The position numbers were made by a program, and so were the translations under genes. From the IMG/VR virus record IMGVR_UViG_3300024265_000064: 52,703 bases of DNA. The stretch is one strand, 5' to 3'. Origin of the DNA: a virus. Below, piece by piece: positions 17,623 to 19,848 of the stretch. The stretch's first letter is position 1. Every line of letters starts with the position of its first letter. Below the pieces are notes generated by a model that saw nothing but the letters and a program-made list of their open reading frames with translations, was not told where the DNA came from and did no database searches.

Positions 17623-17694
17623 ACCTCGTTAGCTCAATGGCAGAGTGTGCGGCCGATAACCGCACGACGATCAGTTCGATTCTGACACGAGGTA
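17623..17694 (+). tRNA. tRNA-Ile(GAT), CCA encoded
   Basis: Acceptor ACCTCGT/ACGAGGT, anticodon arm TGCGG-CCGATAA-CCGCA, TTCGATT T-loop. Confidence 0.7.
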
Positions 17695-17703
17695 CCAAGT
17701 TTT

Positions 17704-17831
17704 TGGGGAGTAGCCGATTGGATAGGCAGCCGCTTTATATGTGGTGTTAACACCTAGAAGTCCAGCAATTGGACTGGCGCGAAGTTTTTAAAGGGCTTCA
17801 GGTTATGCGGGTTCGAATCCCGTCTCCCCCA
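17704..17831 (+). ncRNA. tRNA-like RNA with about 60-nt insertion between anticodon arm and T-arm (possible intron-containing tRNA, anticodon TAT)
   Basis: 5' TGGGGAG + D-arm + GCCGC-TTTATAT-GTGGT; then hairpins GGTGTTAACACC, GTCCA-GCAAT-TGGAC, GAAG..CTTC; then GCGGG-TTCGAAT-CCCGT + CTCCCCC-A-CCA. Confidence 0.35.
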
Positions 17832-17839
17832 CCAGTTTT

Positions 17840-17912
17840 GTCCTCATAGCTTAACCGGAAAAGCGCCACCGTGACATGGTGGAGAATGTTGGCTCGAATC
17901 CATCTGAGGATA
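17840..17912 (+). tRNA. tRNA-Val(GAC), CCA encoded
   Basis: D-arm GCTT-AACCGGAA-AAGC, anticodon arm CCACC-GTGACAT-GGTGG. Confidence 0.65.
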
Positions 17913-17917
17913 CCAAA

Positions 17918-18005
17918 GGGGTGTGCGTTGGTTCGAATCCAACCAATTCTGATGATGTTCGGCCATGACCGACGAGGAATTGTAGCTCAGCGGCAGAGCC
18001 ACCTC
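17918..18005 (+). tRNA. candidate permuted tRNA: 3' half 17918-17951 upstream of 5' half 17976-18005
   Basis: 3' half GGGGT + GTGC + GTTGG-TTCGAAT-CCAAC + CAATTCT-G; 5' half GGAATTG (pairs CAATTCT) + D-arm GCTC-AGCGGCA-GAGC + ACCTC (pairs GGGGT); the spacer forms hairpin TCGG-CCATGA-CCGA. Confidence 0.35.
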
Positions 18006-18103
18006 AAGTTTATGGGAAACGCAGGTTCAAATCCTACTGCCTTTCAACTTACGGATGCATACGTAGGGAGGTATCGTCTAGTCTGGCCTAGGACGCCCAT
18101 CGT

Positions 18104-18703
18104 TTATAGTTTGTAGCCATAGGATTCTGCGAGCTTTATTGCATCCGGATCTTTTAACTGCTTAGGTCCTTTATAATGACCCGAGTTTATTTTTCGATTG
18201 ATTGATTCAAGTTCTTTTTTTATTTTGTCTTCTGGCACTTTGATTTTGATGATGTCAAGCAAGTTGTAAATTTCGAAATCTATATCTTCAACTTTCCATC
18301 TATACACTGCACGTTCAGCAATGATATTGTTGATGTCTACCCAAAATCTTTCGTATATCAGCTGTCTTCTTTCTGATCCCCTAATGACATATCTTTCGGG
18401 TTTATTTGTGGTTCGAGAAGCATGTGCTTTATCTTTACCAGATTCTAATATAGTCCAGTGCATCATTGATTTGATAACTTCTGGAGGATAACGAACTTGG
18501 TGCAACACAATGACATCTTCTGGAAGAACATCAAAGTGTTGGACAGAAAGCCAGCTAGATTCACCAACAACACCTTCTCCCCACGCAGCGATATCATAAT
18601 TATAGATTTGCTCCCAACCACATTTAATTCCTAAGTTGCTTAAGAGGTCAGCAATGAATTTAGTTCCAGATCTCGGACAACCAGTAATAAGAAATCGTTG
18701 CAT
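18104..18703 (-). CDS. sulfotransferase-family (PAPS-binding-loop-like) protein; only credible minus-strand gene
   Basis: N-terminal ITGCPRSGTKF resembles the sulfotransferase 5'-PSB loop PKSGTTW; sits in a gap of the tRNA island. Confidence 0.45.
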   Translation of the reverse strand: MQRFLITGCPRSGTKFIADLLSNLGIKCGWEQIYNYDIAAWGEGVVGESSWLSVQHFDVLPEDVIVLHQVRYPPEVIKSMMHWTILESGKDKAHASRTTNKPERYVIRGSERRQLIYERFWVDINNIIAERAVYRWKVEDIDFEIYNLLDIIKIKVPEDKIKKELESINRKINSGHYKGPKQLKDPDAIKLAESYGYKL

Positions 18704-18740
18704 AGAATAAATATGCTAGCAAAGTGAAATGTTATAATTT

Positions 18741-18811
18741 GCCGCCTTCGTCTAATGGCAGGGCCTAGTCTTTACACGGCTGTGGCGGGAGTTCGATTCT
18801 CTCAGGCGGTA
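18741..18811 (+). tRNA. tRNA-Val(TAC)
   Basis: Acceptor GCCGCCT/AGGCGGT, anticodon arm TAGTC-TTTACAC-GGCTG, T-arm GGGAG-TTCGATT-CTCTC. Confidence 0.7.
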
Positions 18812-18830
18812 CCGTCTTCAAAGTCTGGTT

Positions 18831-18908
18831 GATCGCCAGGTATAGGAGATGCTTAGCAGGCTCGACTCCGAATCGAGGGATCCTGTTAGTGGGACTTTGC
18901 TGGCGGTC
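18831..18908 (+). ncRNA. atypical tRNA-like element (anticodon arm CTCGA-CTCCGAA-TCGAG, CCG) lacking a canonical T-loop
   Basis: Acceptor GATCGCC/GGCGGTC pairs; no TTCRA T-loop. Confidence 0.25.
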
Positions 18909-18916
18909 CCATGTTT

Positions 18917-18985
18917 GCCCTCAGCCACTGGATGGAACTTCCGGCTACGAACCGGAATGGAGAGGTTCGAGTCCTCTTGAGGGTA
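18917..18985 (+). tRNA. tRNA-Arg(ACG), CCA encoded
   Basis: Anticodon arm TCCGG-CTACGAA-CCGGA, T-arm AGAGG-TTCGAGT-CCTCT. Confidence 0.7.
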
Positions 18986-19096
18986 CCAACGGGGAGTTTT
19001 CTAGAAACAAACCGGACTGAGACGCTGGAATACCAGTAGGTCTGATTGATCAGTTATAATCTCCTTGGTTAGGGAGTCCTTTAATCTCAGTTATCT

Positions 19097-19170
19097 GCCC
19101 CGATACTCCAATTGGAAGAGAGACACGCCTGAGACGCGTGACAGTGTGAGTTCGAATCTCACTCGGGGCA
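19097..19170 (+). tRNA. tRNA with anticodon GAG (reads Leu codons CUC/CUU), class I architecture, CCA encoded
   Basis: Acceptor GCCCCGA/TCGGGGC, anticodon arm CACGC-CTGAGAC-GCGTG, T-arm GTGAG-TTCGAAT-CTCAC, A73. Confidence 0.65.
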
Positions 19171-19434: not shown

Positions 19435-19848
19435 ATGAAAAAGTTTATCGGGTTTACGATTGTAATTTTTGCGATTTGTCTCATTACCTCATCGTGTGGA
19501 TCTGGTGGACCTGATCCTGTAGAAAATGGTGTGACGTGCGAGCTAAGTGAAGAATGTGTATCTGGAAACTGTGTAACAGAATTTCAGGATGAGACAGAAG
19601 TTGCCGGTGGTTTTTGTACTGATGAATGTGCGTGGCTCACCACCGACGGCGAAGAATGTGAAGCTGGTTTGGATTGTCTAGTAGACTCCTGTCCAGATAC
19701 AGAACTTTGTCTCAGGTATAATCCGACCGGTGAAAAAGTTTGTTTTCAAAAATGTACTGCTAATGAAGACTGTAGGGTTAATGAAGGTTGGGAATGTGTC
19801 TGTCTAGACTTCTTCTGTGATGCTCAGGCCTGCGTTCCACCTCTATAG
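19435..19848 (+). CDS. secreted cysteine-rich protein, possibly a lipoprotein
   Basis: Signal peptide MKKFIGFTIVIFAICLITSSC; 20 Cys in 137 aa. Confidence 0.55.
   Translation: MKKFIGFTIVIFAICLITSSCGSGGPDPVENGVTCELSEECVSGNCVTEFQDETEVAGGFCTDECAWLTTDGEECEAGLDCLVDSCPDTELCLRYNPTGEKVCFQKCTANEDCRVNEGWECVCLDFFCDAQACVPPL

What the first reader, a model, noticed from the sequence alone, without database searches (positions are those of the whole stretch)
17918..18110. Third permuted-tRNA candidate plus orphan tRNA halves next to the only antisense gene
3' half GGGGT-GTGC-GTTGG-TTCGAAT-CCAAC-CAATTCT (17918-17951) precedes 5' half GGAATTG-TA-GCTC-AGCGGCA-GAGC-C-ACCTC (17976-18005). The acceptor stems pair (7 bp, one G-U) and ACCTC pairs GGGGT (anticodon stem). 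The spacer forms hairpin TCGG-CCATGA-CCGA. Downstream are an orphan T-arm with acceptor strand GCAGG-TTCAAAT-CCTAC-TGCCTTT (18021-18044) and an orphan Glu-like 5' half GGAGGTA-TC-GTC-TAGTCTGGCCTAG-GAC (18075-18103). The latter runs into the end of the minus-strand sulfotransferase-like gene (18104-18703), as if that gene had inserted into or truncated a tRNA.
Basis: seen in the sequence. Interest (0 to 1): 0.6.

Follow-up and report, generated by a model that had tools for sequence, protein, structure and literature searches.

The report
Permuted tRNA-shaped mimics in phage array
Two neighbouring stretches in a phage's tRNA gene cluster encode tRNA-shaped RNAs with their halves in swapped order, a closed 'acceptor' end and no anticodon, so they are conserved tRNA mimics of the bacterial YrlA (Y RNA-like) type rather than split genes for working tRNAs.

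Summary
The permuted order is real. Unit c3 (17918-18005) reads 3' half, hairpin linker, 5' half. All 7 acceptor pairs and all 5 anticodon-stem pairs form.

The two "orphans" are not orphans. They pair with each other (12/12) to form a fourth unit, c4 (18012-18100).

Both units recur at the same array position in two related phage lineages, with compensatory base changes. In those relatives the acceptor arms are short hairpins capped by UUCG or GNRA loops. No ortholog has an anticodon loop or CCA. They are therefore not genes for decoding tRNAs.

Topology and tertiary nucleotides match the tRNA-like module of bacterial YrlA RNAs. c3/c4 lack the Ro60-binding stem and any Ro60 gene in the window.

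They resemble domain B of a roughly 400-nt, two-domain permuted tRNA-like RNA that follows the DUF7873 gene here (c1/c2). The same RNA follows DUF7873 in every phage relative examined and in 74 of 80 bacterial genome loci. It reaches no Rfam gathering score.

The antisense gene is an insertion between c4 and tRNA-Val(UAC) and truncates nothing.

The function is inferred, not shown: a tRNA-body or nicked-tRNA mimic.

Verdict: a genuine, conserved RNA and a new variant of a known kind.

The parts
17840..17915 (+). tRNA-Val(GAC) with encoded CCA. Its 3' end lies 2 nt before c3 and sets the likely 5' end of the c3-c4 RNA.
   Evidence: ARAGORN; Rfam tRNA 55.3 bits
17918..17951 (+). c3 '3' half': anticodon-stem 3' strand GGGGT, variable loop GTGC, T arm GTTGG-TTCGAAT-CCAAC, acceptor 3' strand CAATTCT, then G73.
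   Evidence: Sequence; model R1 alignment; MFE fold
17952..17975 (+). c3 linker that caps the acceptor arm: internal loop plus hairpin TCGG-CCATGA-CCGA. No CCA.
   Evidence: The linker is not conserved in length in L056 (GNRA-capped) or L059 (UUCG).
17976..18005 (+). c3 '5' half': acceptor 5' strand GGAATTG, U8 A9, D arm GCTC-AGCGGCA-GAGC, C26, anticodon-stem 5' strand ACCTC.
18006..18011 (+). U-rich joint AAGUUU between c3 and c4. The orthologs have GUUUUUU and ACUUUGUUUU. It is not an anticodon loop.
18012..18045 (+). c4 '3' half': ATGGG, AAAC, T arm GCAGG-TTCAAAT-CCTAC (one C-A mismatch), acceptor 3' strand TGCCTTT, then C73.
18046..18066 (+). c4 linker: AACT + hairpin TACG-GATGCATA-CGTA + G. 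The final G pairs with C73, extending the acceptor arm.
   Evidence: In L056 the hairpin stem becomes CATG/CATG, with two compensatory pairs.
18067..18100 (+). c4 '5' half': GGAGGTA, U8 C9, D arm GUCU-AGUCUGGCCUA-GGAC, G26, CCCAT.
18104..18703 (-). Antisense ORF (199 aa), lineage-specific, inserted between c4 and tRNA-Val(UAC). It is not part of the RNA element.
   Evidence: No family hit and no homolog in any fetched locus.
18741..18813 (+). tRNA-Val(UAC). In relatives it is the immediate 3' neighbour of c4.
12996..13730 (+). DUF7873 (PF25283) gene, the conserved protein partner or neighbour of the c1/c2 RNA.
   Evidence: Pfam E 9e-94; homologs; loci
13735..13972 (+). A permuted class-II, Leu-like tRNA mimic that opens through a long leader/post-A helix at the variable-arm position. 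Its 'anticodon arm' is a closed mini-hairpin.
   Evidence: RNAalifold with compensatory pairs
13991..14155 (+). Domain B (= c2; core 14020-14115). A permuted class-I tRNA mimic with a ~20-bp closed acceptor rod, outer leader/trailer helices and the conserved trailer CUUAGAUCUAAA...AUUAAACG.
   Evidence: R1 56.9 bits; MFE z = -6.4; alifold
14195..14225 (+). Rho-independent terminator that ends the DUF7873-linked RNA.

Best explanation
c3 (17918-18005) and c4 (18012-18100) are two tandem, circularly permuted tRNA-like domains. They are non-decoding tRNA mimics of the same architecture as the tRNA-like module of bacterial YrlA (Y RNA-like) RNAs.

**Shown**
- Each unit folds as a four-way junction. 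A 5-bp closing stem sits at the anticodon-stem position. It encloses a T arm, an acceptor-like arm that is closed rather than open, and a D arm.
- The tertiary-contact nucleotides of the tRNA L-shape are kept: U8, A14, G15:C48, G18G19, U54-A58, G53:C61.
- Neither unit has an anticodon loop or a CCA end.
- The fold is conserved with compensatory changes at the same array position in related phages.
- The same fold recurs as domain B of a two-domain RNA that follows the DUF7873 gene in this window, in every phage relative examined and in most bacterial loci examined.

**Inferred**
- c3 and c4 are transcribed inside the polycistronic tRNA-array RNA.
- They are released as a roughly 190-nt two-domain RNA by maturation of their neighbours. 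The upstream cut is 3' processing of tRNA-Val(GAC), 2 nt before c3. The downstream cut is RNase P at the next tRNA.
- They act through their tRNA-like body. Their free ends lie exactly where an anticodon nuclease would cut, so they look like a tRNA whose anticodon loop has been removed (a 'nicked tRNA').
- The most likely role is as a ligand, decoy or platform for proteins that recognise the tRNA body or damaged tRNAs. Candidates are tRNA-targeting defence nucleases, RNA-repair sensors or ligases, modification enzymes, or the DUF7873 protein. They are not translation adaptors.
For: **Pairing and cloverleaf**
- Searches show the pairing and the cloverleaf after un-permuting.
- no non-cognate half combination among 992 reaches 12/12 pairs.

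**Orthologs at the same array position**
- L056 has orthologs at 16060-16137 and 16145-16230. L059 has them at 11486-11550 and 11561-11627.
- In both loci the pair lies between tRNA-Ile(GAU) and tRNA-Val(UAC), though in L056 a dubious ARAGORN tRNA-Leu call (15926-16009) lies between tRNA-Ile(GAU) and c3.
- In five of the six sequences the MFE fold is the four-way junction with a closed acceptor arm; the L056 c3 MFE differs, and there the fold was read from the sequence.

**Compensatory changes read from the sequences**
- c4 anticodon stem: CCCAT/ATGGG, CCCGC/GCGGG, TCCAC/GTGGA.
- c4 acceptor pair 5:68: G-C to A-U.
- c4 linker hairpin: TACG/CGTA to CATG/CATG.
- c3 anticodon stem: ACCTC/GGGGT, CCTTC/GAGGG, GTCCC/GGGAT.
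- c3 T-stem pair 50:64: U-A to C-G.

**Closed acceptor arms in relatives**
- L059 c3: 5 bp plus UUCG.
- L056 c3: 5 bp plus internal loop plus CC-GUAA-GG.
- L059 c4: 4-5 bp plus a 3-5-nt loop.

**Family evidence**
- Model R1, built from 11 DUF7873-adjacent elements of other contigs, scores c2 at 56.9, c3 at 44.7 and c4 at 30.8 bits.
- R1 finds domains A and B downstream of DUF7873 in the 62 phage or metagenome loci searched and in 74 of 80 bacterial genome loci.
- On 66 aligned members, 95.7% of cells are paired, against 56.5% when shuffled and 36-48% when slid. Twenty of 21 pairs show double changes.

**Link to YrlA**
- Rfam YrlA (RF02553) aligns to c3 through the T arm, closed acceptor and D arm in the same order, at 24.1 bits and E 0.0096.
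- It aligns to the GodonK and Streptomyces DUF7873-linked elements at 38 and 31 bits.
- The literature describes YrlA as a circularly permuted tRNA with a closed acceptor stem. It is modified by TruB and DusA. The M. smegmatis form, with a 7-bp stem, is cut by RNase P and receives CCA (PMC4201824; bioRxiv 10.1101/312249).
- An engineered permuted tRNA with an acceptor tetraloop mimics a nicked tRNA and binds RtcR (PMC10159003).

**Transcription context**
- A promoter-like site lies at 16439-16467. No terminator-like site lies between it and c4.
Against: - There are no expression or processing data. The ends of the RNA are inferred.
- Function is not shown.
- Only three independent lineages carry c3/c4 orthologs. 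Covariation for these two units rests on a few changes read by eye.
- The c4 model score (30.8 bits) lies within the range of dimeric-tRNA junction false positives (up to 33 bits here, 28 bits in T4). c4 also has three G-U pairs in its acceptor and a C-A mismatch in its T stem.
- MFE z-scores of c3 and c4 are unremarkable (-0.6 and -0.04), as is usual for tRNAs.
- YrlA membership fails on score, on the Ro60-binding stem and on a neighbouring Ro60 gene.
- In this window both units have full 7-bp acceptor stems. RNase P cleavage into two pieces cannot be excluded.
- The DUF7873 protein has no recognisable fold relatives, so a protein-RNA partnership is inferred from adjacency alone.
Confidence: 0.6

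Rival explanations
1. c3 and c4 are two-piece tRNA-like RNAs. RNase P cuts at G1 (17976; 18067). The linker is trimmed and CCA is added, as in M. smegmatis YrlA. The result is a nicked, possibly aminoacylatable but non-decoding tRNA mimic.
For: - Both units have 7-bp acceptor stems stacked on a normal T arm in this window.
- Many family members have linkers that begin N73-CCA and end with U(-1) before G1. Examples are the L021, L022, L032, L036, L041 and L055 elements, L056 14785-14862 and Streptomyces domain A, A-CCA-CGU-G.
- M. smegmatis YrlA is processed in this way.
Against: - c3 and c4 have no CCA, and the base at -1 is A or G.
- In c4 the -1 base pairs with C73, extending the helix.
- Orthologs in L056 and L059 have 4-5-bp acceptor hairpins capped by tetraloops. 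Such stems are described as poor RNase P substrates.
Confidence: 0.15
2. c3 and c4 are true permuted tRNA genes of the red-alga or archaeal type. The ends are cut and ligated into a circle. The acceptor linker is then removed, producing a functional decoding tRNA.
For: - The 3' half-linker-5' half order with a complete cloverleaf body is present.
- Several DUF7873-linked B domains carry anticodon-loop-like heptamers (CUUAGAU, CUCAGAU, CUUCAAA) after the 5' half, plus leader/trailer helices.
- Phages often encode RNA ligases.
Against: - No ortholog of c3 or c4 has a canonical loop (U33, purine 37). Whatever split of flanking bases is used, position 33 is A or G.
- The leader is 2 nt and the trailer 6 nt, so no bulge-helix-bulge fold can form.
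- The L056 and L059 orthologs cannot yield a 7-bp acceptor.
- Permissive Rfam scans of both regions found no ribozyme or intron.
- Bacteria are not known to have a tRNA splicing endonuclease.
- No RNA ligase was found among the window ORFs scanned.
Confidence: 0.07
3. c3 and c4 are decaying remnants of tandem tRNA duplications or recombination in a fluid tRNA array, with no function. Any apparent function would at most be as processing spacers.
For: - Arrays are rearrangement-prone. HNH and other mobile genes sit in the arrays of relatives, and the antisense ORF was inserted here.
- c4 has weak pairs.
- Tandem paralogous tRNAs give trivially 'permuted' matches elsewhere, as in L013, L031 and L040.
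Against: - The units are retained at the same position in three lineages whose DUF7873 proteins are only about 67% identical.
- All four helices are maintained by compensatory changes while linkers and joints diverge.
- No partner half exists upstream or downstream that would complete a normal tRNA.
- The same fold is under strong structural selection family-wide.
Confidence: 0.1
4. Chance resemblance caused by T-arm and D-arm motifs of neighbouring tRNAs.
For: Junctions of adjacent normal tRNAs score 20-33 bits with model R1.
Against: - Those junctions have mismatched acceptor and anticodon stems.
- c3 and c4 both form 12/12 pairs, against 0 of 992 in the empirical null.
- A strict scan found 33 hits in real sequence and 0.33 in shuffled sequence.
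- Orthologs are conserved.
Confidence: 0.01

Closest known systems
YrlA (Y RNA-like A; Rfam RF02553), the tRNA-like module of bacterial and phage Y RNAs bound by Ro60/Rsr
   Same: - The order of elements is the same: closing stem at the anticodon-stem position, T arm, acceptor-like stem-loop, D arm.
- The tRNA tertiary nucleotides are kept, and there is no anticodon loop.
- Acceptor length varies between species. Forms with a 7-bp stem can be cut by RNase P and receive CCA.
- YrlA also occurs in phages.
   Different: - c3 and c4 lack the Ro60-binding terminal helix with the GNCGAAN0-1G motif.
- They lie inside a tRNA array rather than beside an rsr gene.
- They score 24 bits against a gathering score of 69.
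- The related c1/c2 RNA has two tRNA-like domains and accompanies DUF7873, not Ro60. Its domain A opens at the variable-arm position.
Circularly permuted tRNA genes of Cyanidioschyzon merolae, other algae and Thermofilum pendens
   Same: The 3' half lies upstream of the 5' half, joined by a linker across the acceptor ends. The precursor has a closed acceptor and ends at the anticodon region.
   Different: - Those genes encode a complete anticodon loop and a bulge-helix-bulge motif. A splicing endonuclease and ligase process them into working tRNAs.
- Here there is no loop, no BHB, no CCA and a bacterial/phage setting. The orthologs have tetraloop-capped short acceptor arms.
[quoted passage not shown]
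   Same: The design is the same: the acceptor is closed by a small loop, the ends lie in the anticodon region, and the RNA mimics a tRNA cut by an anticodon nuclease. It is a ligand for RtcR and a substrate for RtcB.
   Different: [quoted passage not shown]
- The end chemistry of the natural elements is unknown.
Two-piece (permuted) tmRNA genes
   Same: The gene is permuted so that the T arm and 3' acceptor strand precede the 5' acceptor strand. Processing yields a tRNA-like domain without an anticodon.
   Different: - tmRNA has no D stem, carries a tag reading frame and pseudoknots, has G3:U70 and is alanylated.
- Rfam tmRNA_permuted does not match c3 or c4.
Phage T4 stable RNAs species 1 and 2 (rnaC, rnaD) in the T4 tRNA cluster
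   Same: They are small stable RNAs of unknown function co-located with a phage tRNA cluster (annotation).
   Different: Model R1 does not match them. The best hit is 14 bits and covers only a T-arm-like piece.

Membership tests
YrlA (RF02553) | tRNA-like domain in the order closing stem - T arm - closed acceptor-like stem-loop - D arm | tested here: met
   The Rfam YrlA alignment covers these elements of c3. Model R1 alignments and MFE folds show the same order.
YrlA (RF02553) | Conserved tRNA tertiary nucleotides (T loop UUCRA, D-loop GG, U8, A14, R15:Y48) | tested here: met
   Read from the sequence. c3 has U8, A14, G15:C48, GG in AGCGGCA, and UUCGAAU. c4 has U8, A14, G15:C48, GG in AGUCUGGCCUA, and UUCAAAU.
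YrlA (RF02553) | Ro60/Rsr-binding helix formed by the 5' and 3' ends, with the GNCGAAN0-1G motif | tested here: not met
   c3 is flanked by tRNA-Val CCA plus 2 nt on one side and by a 6-nt U-rich joint on the other. The Rfam alignment deletes or mispairs the outer-stem positions.
YrlA (RF02553) | Encoded next to an rsr (Ro60/TROVE) gene | tested here: not met
   The five ORFs of 400 aa or more were scanned with Pfam and/or PHROGs and none is a Ro60/TROVE protein: MVP-like, radical SAM and GT9/methyltransferase by Pfam, two glycosyltransferases by PHROGs only. No TROVE gene appears in the gene tables of L056-L065. The rest of the ~196-kb genome was not seen.
YrlA (RF02553) | Rfam gathering score (69 bits) | tested here: not met
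   c3 scores 24.1 bits and is absent at gathering threshold. DUF7873-linked elements score 38.2 and 31.2 bits.
Permuted tRNA genes (algal/archaeal type) | 3' half upstream of 5' half of one cloverleaf, joined by a linker | tested here: met
Permuted tRNA genes (algal/archaeal type) | Complete anticodon loop recoverable at the junction, and a BHB motif formed by leader and trailer | tested here: not met
   Every split of the flanking bases gives a loop with no U at position 33. The 2-nt leader and 6-nt trailer leave no room for a BHB. The orthologs have only U-rich joints.
Permuted tRNA genes (algal/archaeal type) | Removal of the linker leaves a 7-bp acceptor with a discriminator ready for CCA | tested here: inconclusive
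   Possible in the window, which has 7-bp stems. Impossible in the L056 and L059 orthologs, which have 4-5 bp stems with tetraloops.
Permuted tRNA genes (algal/archaeal type) | A mature, joined tRNA is detectable | not testable with these tools
   Needs RNA data.
DUF7873-linked permuted tRNA-like RNA (defined here) | Matches the covariance model of domain B built from other contigs, with all four helices paired | tested here: met
   c3 scores 44.7 bits with all pairs standard. c4 scores 30.8 bits with one non-standard pair.
DUF7873-linked permuted tRNA-like RNA (defined here) | Lies within about 400 nt downstream of a DUF7873 gene, with outer leader/trailer helices | tested here: not met
   c3 and c4 lie 4.2 kb downstream, inside the tRNA array, with no outer helices. 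c1 and c2 (13735-14155) are the canonical copy.
Two-piece tmRNA | tmRNA-type tRNA-like domain (no D stem), tag ORF, G3:U70 | tested here: not met
   No tmRNA_permuted match on c3 or c4. Both have normal D arms.

The most novel reading that the evidence does not exclude
c3 and c4, together with c1 and c2, may belong to a widespread and undescribed protein-RNA system. Its components would be the DUF7873 protein and RNAs built from circularly permuted tRNA mimics. DUF7873 is found in at least about 580 bacterial species genomes and in many phages. It would be analogous to, but distinct from, Ro60-Y RNA.

In this reading the mimics act as surrogates of anticodon-cleaved ('nicked') tRNAs. They would engage tRNA-damage sensing or repair, or tRNA-targeting immunity. 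This phage would have multiplied the RNA module inside its tRNA array as a counter-defence.
Probability: 0.2. Interest if true: 0.85.

Novelty: new variant of a known kind. Interest (0 to 1): 0.68.

Why it matters
- **A new setting for tRNA mimicry.** tRNA mimicry by circularly permuted tRNA-like RNAs has so far been tied to Ro60-associated YrlA. Here the same fold appears stripped of the Ro60-binding stem and embedded in a phage tRNA array, where standard tRNA finders miss it.
- **A possible new RNA-protein system.** The fold also appears as a two-domain RNA that accompanies a protein family of unknown function (DUF7873). This holds in many phage contigs and in 74 of the 80 bacterial genome loci examined.
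- **Links to phage-host conflict over tRNAs.** If these RNAs bind tRNA-directed enzymes or damage sensors, they would connect phage tRNA arrays with counter-defence.
- **A practical caution.** A 'permuted tRNA' pattern in bacteria or phages should not be read as a split tRNA gene without checking for an anticodon loop, a CCA and the form of the acceptor arm in orthologs.

Tried and rejected
**Searches for close relatives**
- Megablast of 13700-19100 against phage isolates gave no match.
- blastn (distant mode) of c3-c4 against phage isolates gave no match.
- tblastn and related-locus scans with the antisense ORF gave nothing.
- A scan with the ORF at 19435-19848 gave nothing.
- A metagenome scan with the conserved c4 linker pattern gave no match.

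**Searches for a DUF7873 function**
- A profile search against PDB sequences, and the NCBIfam and PADLOC libraries, gave nothing.
- The literature library holds no paper mentioning DUF7873.

**Other tests**
- T4 rnaC and rnaD were tested as possible members and do not match.
- A relaxed regular-expression scan for the T arm-acceptor-D arm core was too noisy: 692 forward hits against 229 in shuffled sequence. It was replaced by the strict scan and the covariance model.
- The first MAFFT alignment of 26 elements mis-registered the closing stem. A uniform subset of 11 was used instead.
- Several high-scoring model hits proved to be junctions of adjacent or paralogous normal tRNAs and were discarded: L062 8528 and 8604, L013 19072, L031 13032, L040 11806.
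- The normal-order reading (c3 5' half with c4 3' half) was rejected. It gives 7/12 pairs and an Rfam tRNA score of 18.8 bits, below the gathering score of 29.
- Ribozyme-assisted or intron-assisted joining was rejected. Permissive Rfam scans of both regions found no such family.
- A link between the MVP-like ORF and TROVE or RtcB systems could not be substantiated from the literature library.
Full report
**Context.** The window is phage-like. Genes are dense and nearly all on the + strand. ARAGORN finds 32 tRNAs between 14957 and 26766, and Rfam finds 33 tRNA matches plus a tmRNA-like match. The nearest isolates share only distant protein similarity: Arthrobacter, Gordonia, Rhodococcus, Pseudanabaena and Vibrio phages at 46% identity or less. 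No isolate matches at the DNA level. The DUF7873 protein encoded at 12996-13730 occurs with an identical sequence on a 196-kb contig.

**Observation.** The sequence confirms c3 exactly as described.
- The 3' half lies at 17918-17951, the linker hairpin TCGG-CCATGA-CCGA follows, and the 5' half lies at 17976-18005.
- The acceptor stem forms 7/7 pairs and the anticodon stem 5/5 pairs.
- The 'orphan' T arm is at 18021-18044.
- The 'orphan' 5' half starts at 18067, not 18075.

GGAGGTA pairs with TGCCTTT, and CCCAT (18096-18100) pairs with ATGGG (18012-18016). They form a fourth permuted unit, c4, which ends 3 nt before the stop codon of the antisense ORF.

ARAGORN calls a cloverleaf for c3 and c4 once the halves are rejoined in normal order, whichever flanking bases fill the loop. 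None of 992 non-cognate half combinations of the window's own tRNAs reaches 12/12 pairs. The normal-order reading (c3 5' half with c4 3' half) gives 7/12.

**Relatives.** Contigs encoding the closest DUF7873 proteins (67% identity; L056-L058 and L059) are syntenic. Their order is DUF7873, a gene-free stretch, tRNA-Gln, a PF04308 gene, then the tRNA array.
- L056 carries c3 and c4 orthologs at 16060-16137 and 16145-16230.
- L059 carries them at 11486-11550 and 11561-11627.
- In both, the pair lies between tRNA-Ile(GAU) and tRNA-Val(UAC), though in L056 a dubious ARAGORN tRNA-Leu call (15926-16009) lies between tRNA-Ile(GAU) and c3.

Helices are kept by compensatory changes:
- c4 anticodon stem: CCCAT/ATGGG, CCCGC/GCGGG, TCCAC/GTGGA.
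- c4 acceptor pair 5:68: G-C to A-U.
- c4 linker hairpin: TACG/CGTA to CATG/CATG.
- c3 anticodon stem: ACCTC/GGGGT, CCTTC/GAGGG, GTCCC/GGGAT.
- c3 T-stem pair 50:64: U-A to C-G.

In five of the six sequences the minimum-free-energy fold is the four-way junction; the L056 c3 MFE differs, and there the fold was read from the sequence.

The acceptor arm is not conserved as a 7-bp end.
- L059 c3 has 5 bp closed by UUCG.
- L056 c3 has 5 bp, an internal loop and a GNRA-capped mini-helix.
- L059 c4 has 4-5 bp with a 3-5-nt loop.

The joints after each 5' half are U-rich (AAGUUU, GUUUUUU, ACUUUGUUUU; then CGUUUAUAG, CGCUUUUUAC, CGCUAUUUUACUUU). None is a canonical anticodon loop, and there is no CCA. 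These units cannot be split genes for decoding tRNAs.

**The antisense gene.** In L056 and L059, c4 is followed after 10-14 nt by tRNA-Val(UAC). In the window the 199-aa ORF and its flanks sit in exactly that gap. The ORF has no homolog in any fetched locus or in the phage and viral collections. It has no family assignment. It is a lineage-specific insertion that truncates nothing, and the 'sulfotransferase' label is unconfirmed.

**A larger family.** A strict scan for T arm, acceptor 3' strand, linker, acceptor 5' strand, D arm and closing stem was run over 55 viral contigs fetched through DUF7873. It gave 33 hits against 0.33 in shuffled sequence, almost all 50-400 nt downstream of DUF7873.

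The region after DUF7873 is a conserved RNA of about 400 nt that ends in a terminator. RNAalifold on six relatives predicts 87 pairs, 46 of them with compensatory changes. Its parts are:
- a long leader/post-A helix;
- domain B, with a class-I body that opens at the anticodon stem, outer leader/trailer helices and a conserved CUUAGAUCUAAA...AUUAAACG trailer (this is c2).

Covariance model R1 was built from 11 B domains of other contigs.
- It scores c2 at 56.9, c3 at 44.7 and c4 at 30.8 bits.
- It finds A and B after DUF7873 in all 62 loci searched.
- On 66 aligned hits, 95.7% of cells pair, against 56.5% shuffled and 36-48% slid. Twenty of 21 pairs show double changes, and the acceptor helix is 99.6% paired.
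- Junctions of adjacent normal tRNAs give up to 28-33 bits, but with mismatched stems. The c4 score alone is therefore not decisive. Its pairing and its 47.6-bit ortholog are.

DUF7873 is also chromosomal in at least 581 species-representative bacterial genomes, including Streptomyces, Actinoplanes, Nocardia, Myxococcota, Abditibacteriota, Acidobacteriota, Chloroflexota and Planctomycetota.
- A and B follow it in 74 of the 80 loci kept.
- No other neighbouring gene is conserved.

Further array-embedded copies exist in the relatives. L056 14785-14862 has a U73-CCA-AUUUCAUAU linker, and L059 10753-10824 has G3:U70.

**Comparison with known systems.** Permissive Rfam scans give YrlA (RF02553) as the only non-tRNA family aligned to c3 (24.1 bits, E 0.0096, gathering score 69). 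The alignment runs through the T arm, closed acceptor and D arm in that order, and the outer Ro60-binding stems are not matched. The GodonK and Streptomyces DUF7873-linked elements reach 38 and 31 bits. Nothing reaches gathering threshold.

The literature describes YrlA as follows:
- It is a tRNA mimic that resembles a circularly permuted tRNA with a closed acceptor stem and no anticodon loop.
- It is modified by TruB and DusA.
- Acceptor length varies between species.
- The M. smegmatis form, with a 7-bp stem, is cleaved by RNase P and receives CCA.
- It is encoded next to Ro60 in more than 250 bacteria and phages.

That range mirrors what is seen here. Many family linkers read N73-CCA...U(-1)G1, while others are tetraloops.

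c3 and c4 meet the architectural features of YrlA. They fail on the Ro60-binding helix, on a neighbouring rsr gene (none among the scanned ORFs or in the relatives' gene tables) and on score. They are not algal or archaeal-type permuted tRNA genes, because they lack an anticodon loop and a BHB motif. They are not two-piece tmRNAs. T4 rnaC and rnaD are not of this kind. An engineered permuted tRNA with an acceptor tetraloop was used as a mimic of an anticodon-nicked tRNA that binds RtcR and is ligated by RtcB. c3 and c4 have that design.

**Mechanism.**
- *Shown:* the fold, its conservation, the absence of an anticodon and CCA, the closed acceptor arms in orthologs, and the position inside a run of same-strand tRNAs. 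A promoter-like site lies at 16439-16467 and no terminator-like site lies before c4.
- *Inferred:* c3 and c4 are co-transcribed with the array. They are released by maturation of the flanking tRNAs, fold into an L-shape and act through tRNA-body mimicry. They are most plausibly a decoy, ligand or platform for tRNA-directed or tRNA-damage-sensing proteins, or for DUF7873.

RNase P cleavage of the 7-bp stems in this particular phage remains possible. The DUF7873 protein gives no functional clue. Its model is confident (pLDDT 87), but no informative structural or profile match was found.

**Verdict.** The feature is real and conserved. It is best filed as a new variant of the YrlA-type tRNA mimic. 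It is linked by fold to a widespread DUF7873-associated RNA that reaches no Rfam gathering score, and the literature library holds no paper mentioning DUF7873.

Noticed in passing
window 12996-14225; also L001-L065 and L067-L146: DUF7873 (PF25283) is followed almost everywhere by a conserved ~400-nt RNA. The RNA has two circularly permuted tRNA-like domains (A and B) and a terminator whose loop UAGGUUA is conserved. The module occurs in phages and in the chromosomes of many bacterial phyla, with no other conserved neighbour. It has no Rfam family at gathering threshold, and the literature library holds no paper mentioning DUF7873.
   Followed up: partly
window 17537-17619: An 83-nt match to Rfam tmRNA (64 bits; model positions 1-374 with 304 positions skipped). 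It is a tmRNA tRNA-like domain (acceptor GGGCGCG/CGCGUCC with G3:U70) whose whole mRNA and pseudoknot part is replaced by a short hairpin. In effect it is a 'tRNA-like-domain-only' mini-tmRNA inside the tRNA array.
   Followed up: no
window 17704-17831: A 128-nt tRNA (Rfam 36.5 bits; missed by ARAGORN). It has a UAU anticodon loop, an encoded CCA and a 57-nt structured insertion in the variable region.
   Followed up: no
window 2507-5140: An 877-aa ORF with Major Vault Protein shoulder (E 1e-20) and Vault_3 repeat domains. This is unusual for a phage, and it lies in the same genome as several tRNA and Y-RNA-like mimics.
   Followed up: no
L056 14785-14862; L059 10753-10824: A third conserved array-embedded permuted tRNA-like unit in the relatives, directly after a normal tRNA. 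The L056 copy has a U73-CCA-AUUUCAUAU linker like that of domain A. The L059 copy has G3:U70. No ortholog was seen in the window.
   Followed up: partly
window 14116-14151 and the B domains of many loci: The trailer after domain B carries anticodon-loop-like heptamers (CUUAGAU, CUAAGAU, CUCAGAU, CUUCAAA), then CUAAA, a variable helix and AUUAAACGUCGUUAG. The long acceptor rod of B carries a conserved CUGAG/UUGAG internal G-G mismatch. The meaning of both is unknown.
   Followed up: partly
window 15050-15562; L056 12062-12577; L059 7001-7489: A PF04308 'RNaseH_like' (YkuK-type) gene is conserved just after tRNA-Gln, between the DUF7873 RNA and the main tRNA array in this clade. It may be an RNA-processing factor.
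   Followed up: no
L105, L108, L109 (Herpetosiphon): These DUF7873 loci lack the A/B RNA. In L105 an ADP-ribosylglycohydrolase gene starts 93 nt downstream instead.
   Followed up: partly
L018/L019 19097-19351: A second A-like plus B-like pair of permuted tRNA-like domains lies about 9 kb downstream of DUF7873 in these contigs. This suggests the RNA module can be duplicated independently of the protein gene.
   Followed up: no
window 18104-18703 (-): The only plausible minus-strand gene. It is 199 aa with an N-terminal GCPRSGT motif, and has no hit in Pfam, PHROGs, NCBIfam, PADLOC or PDB sequence searches and no homolog in the relatives. It appears to be a recent insertion into the tRNA array.
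   Followed up: yes
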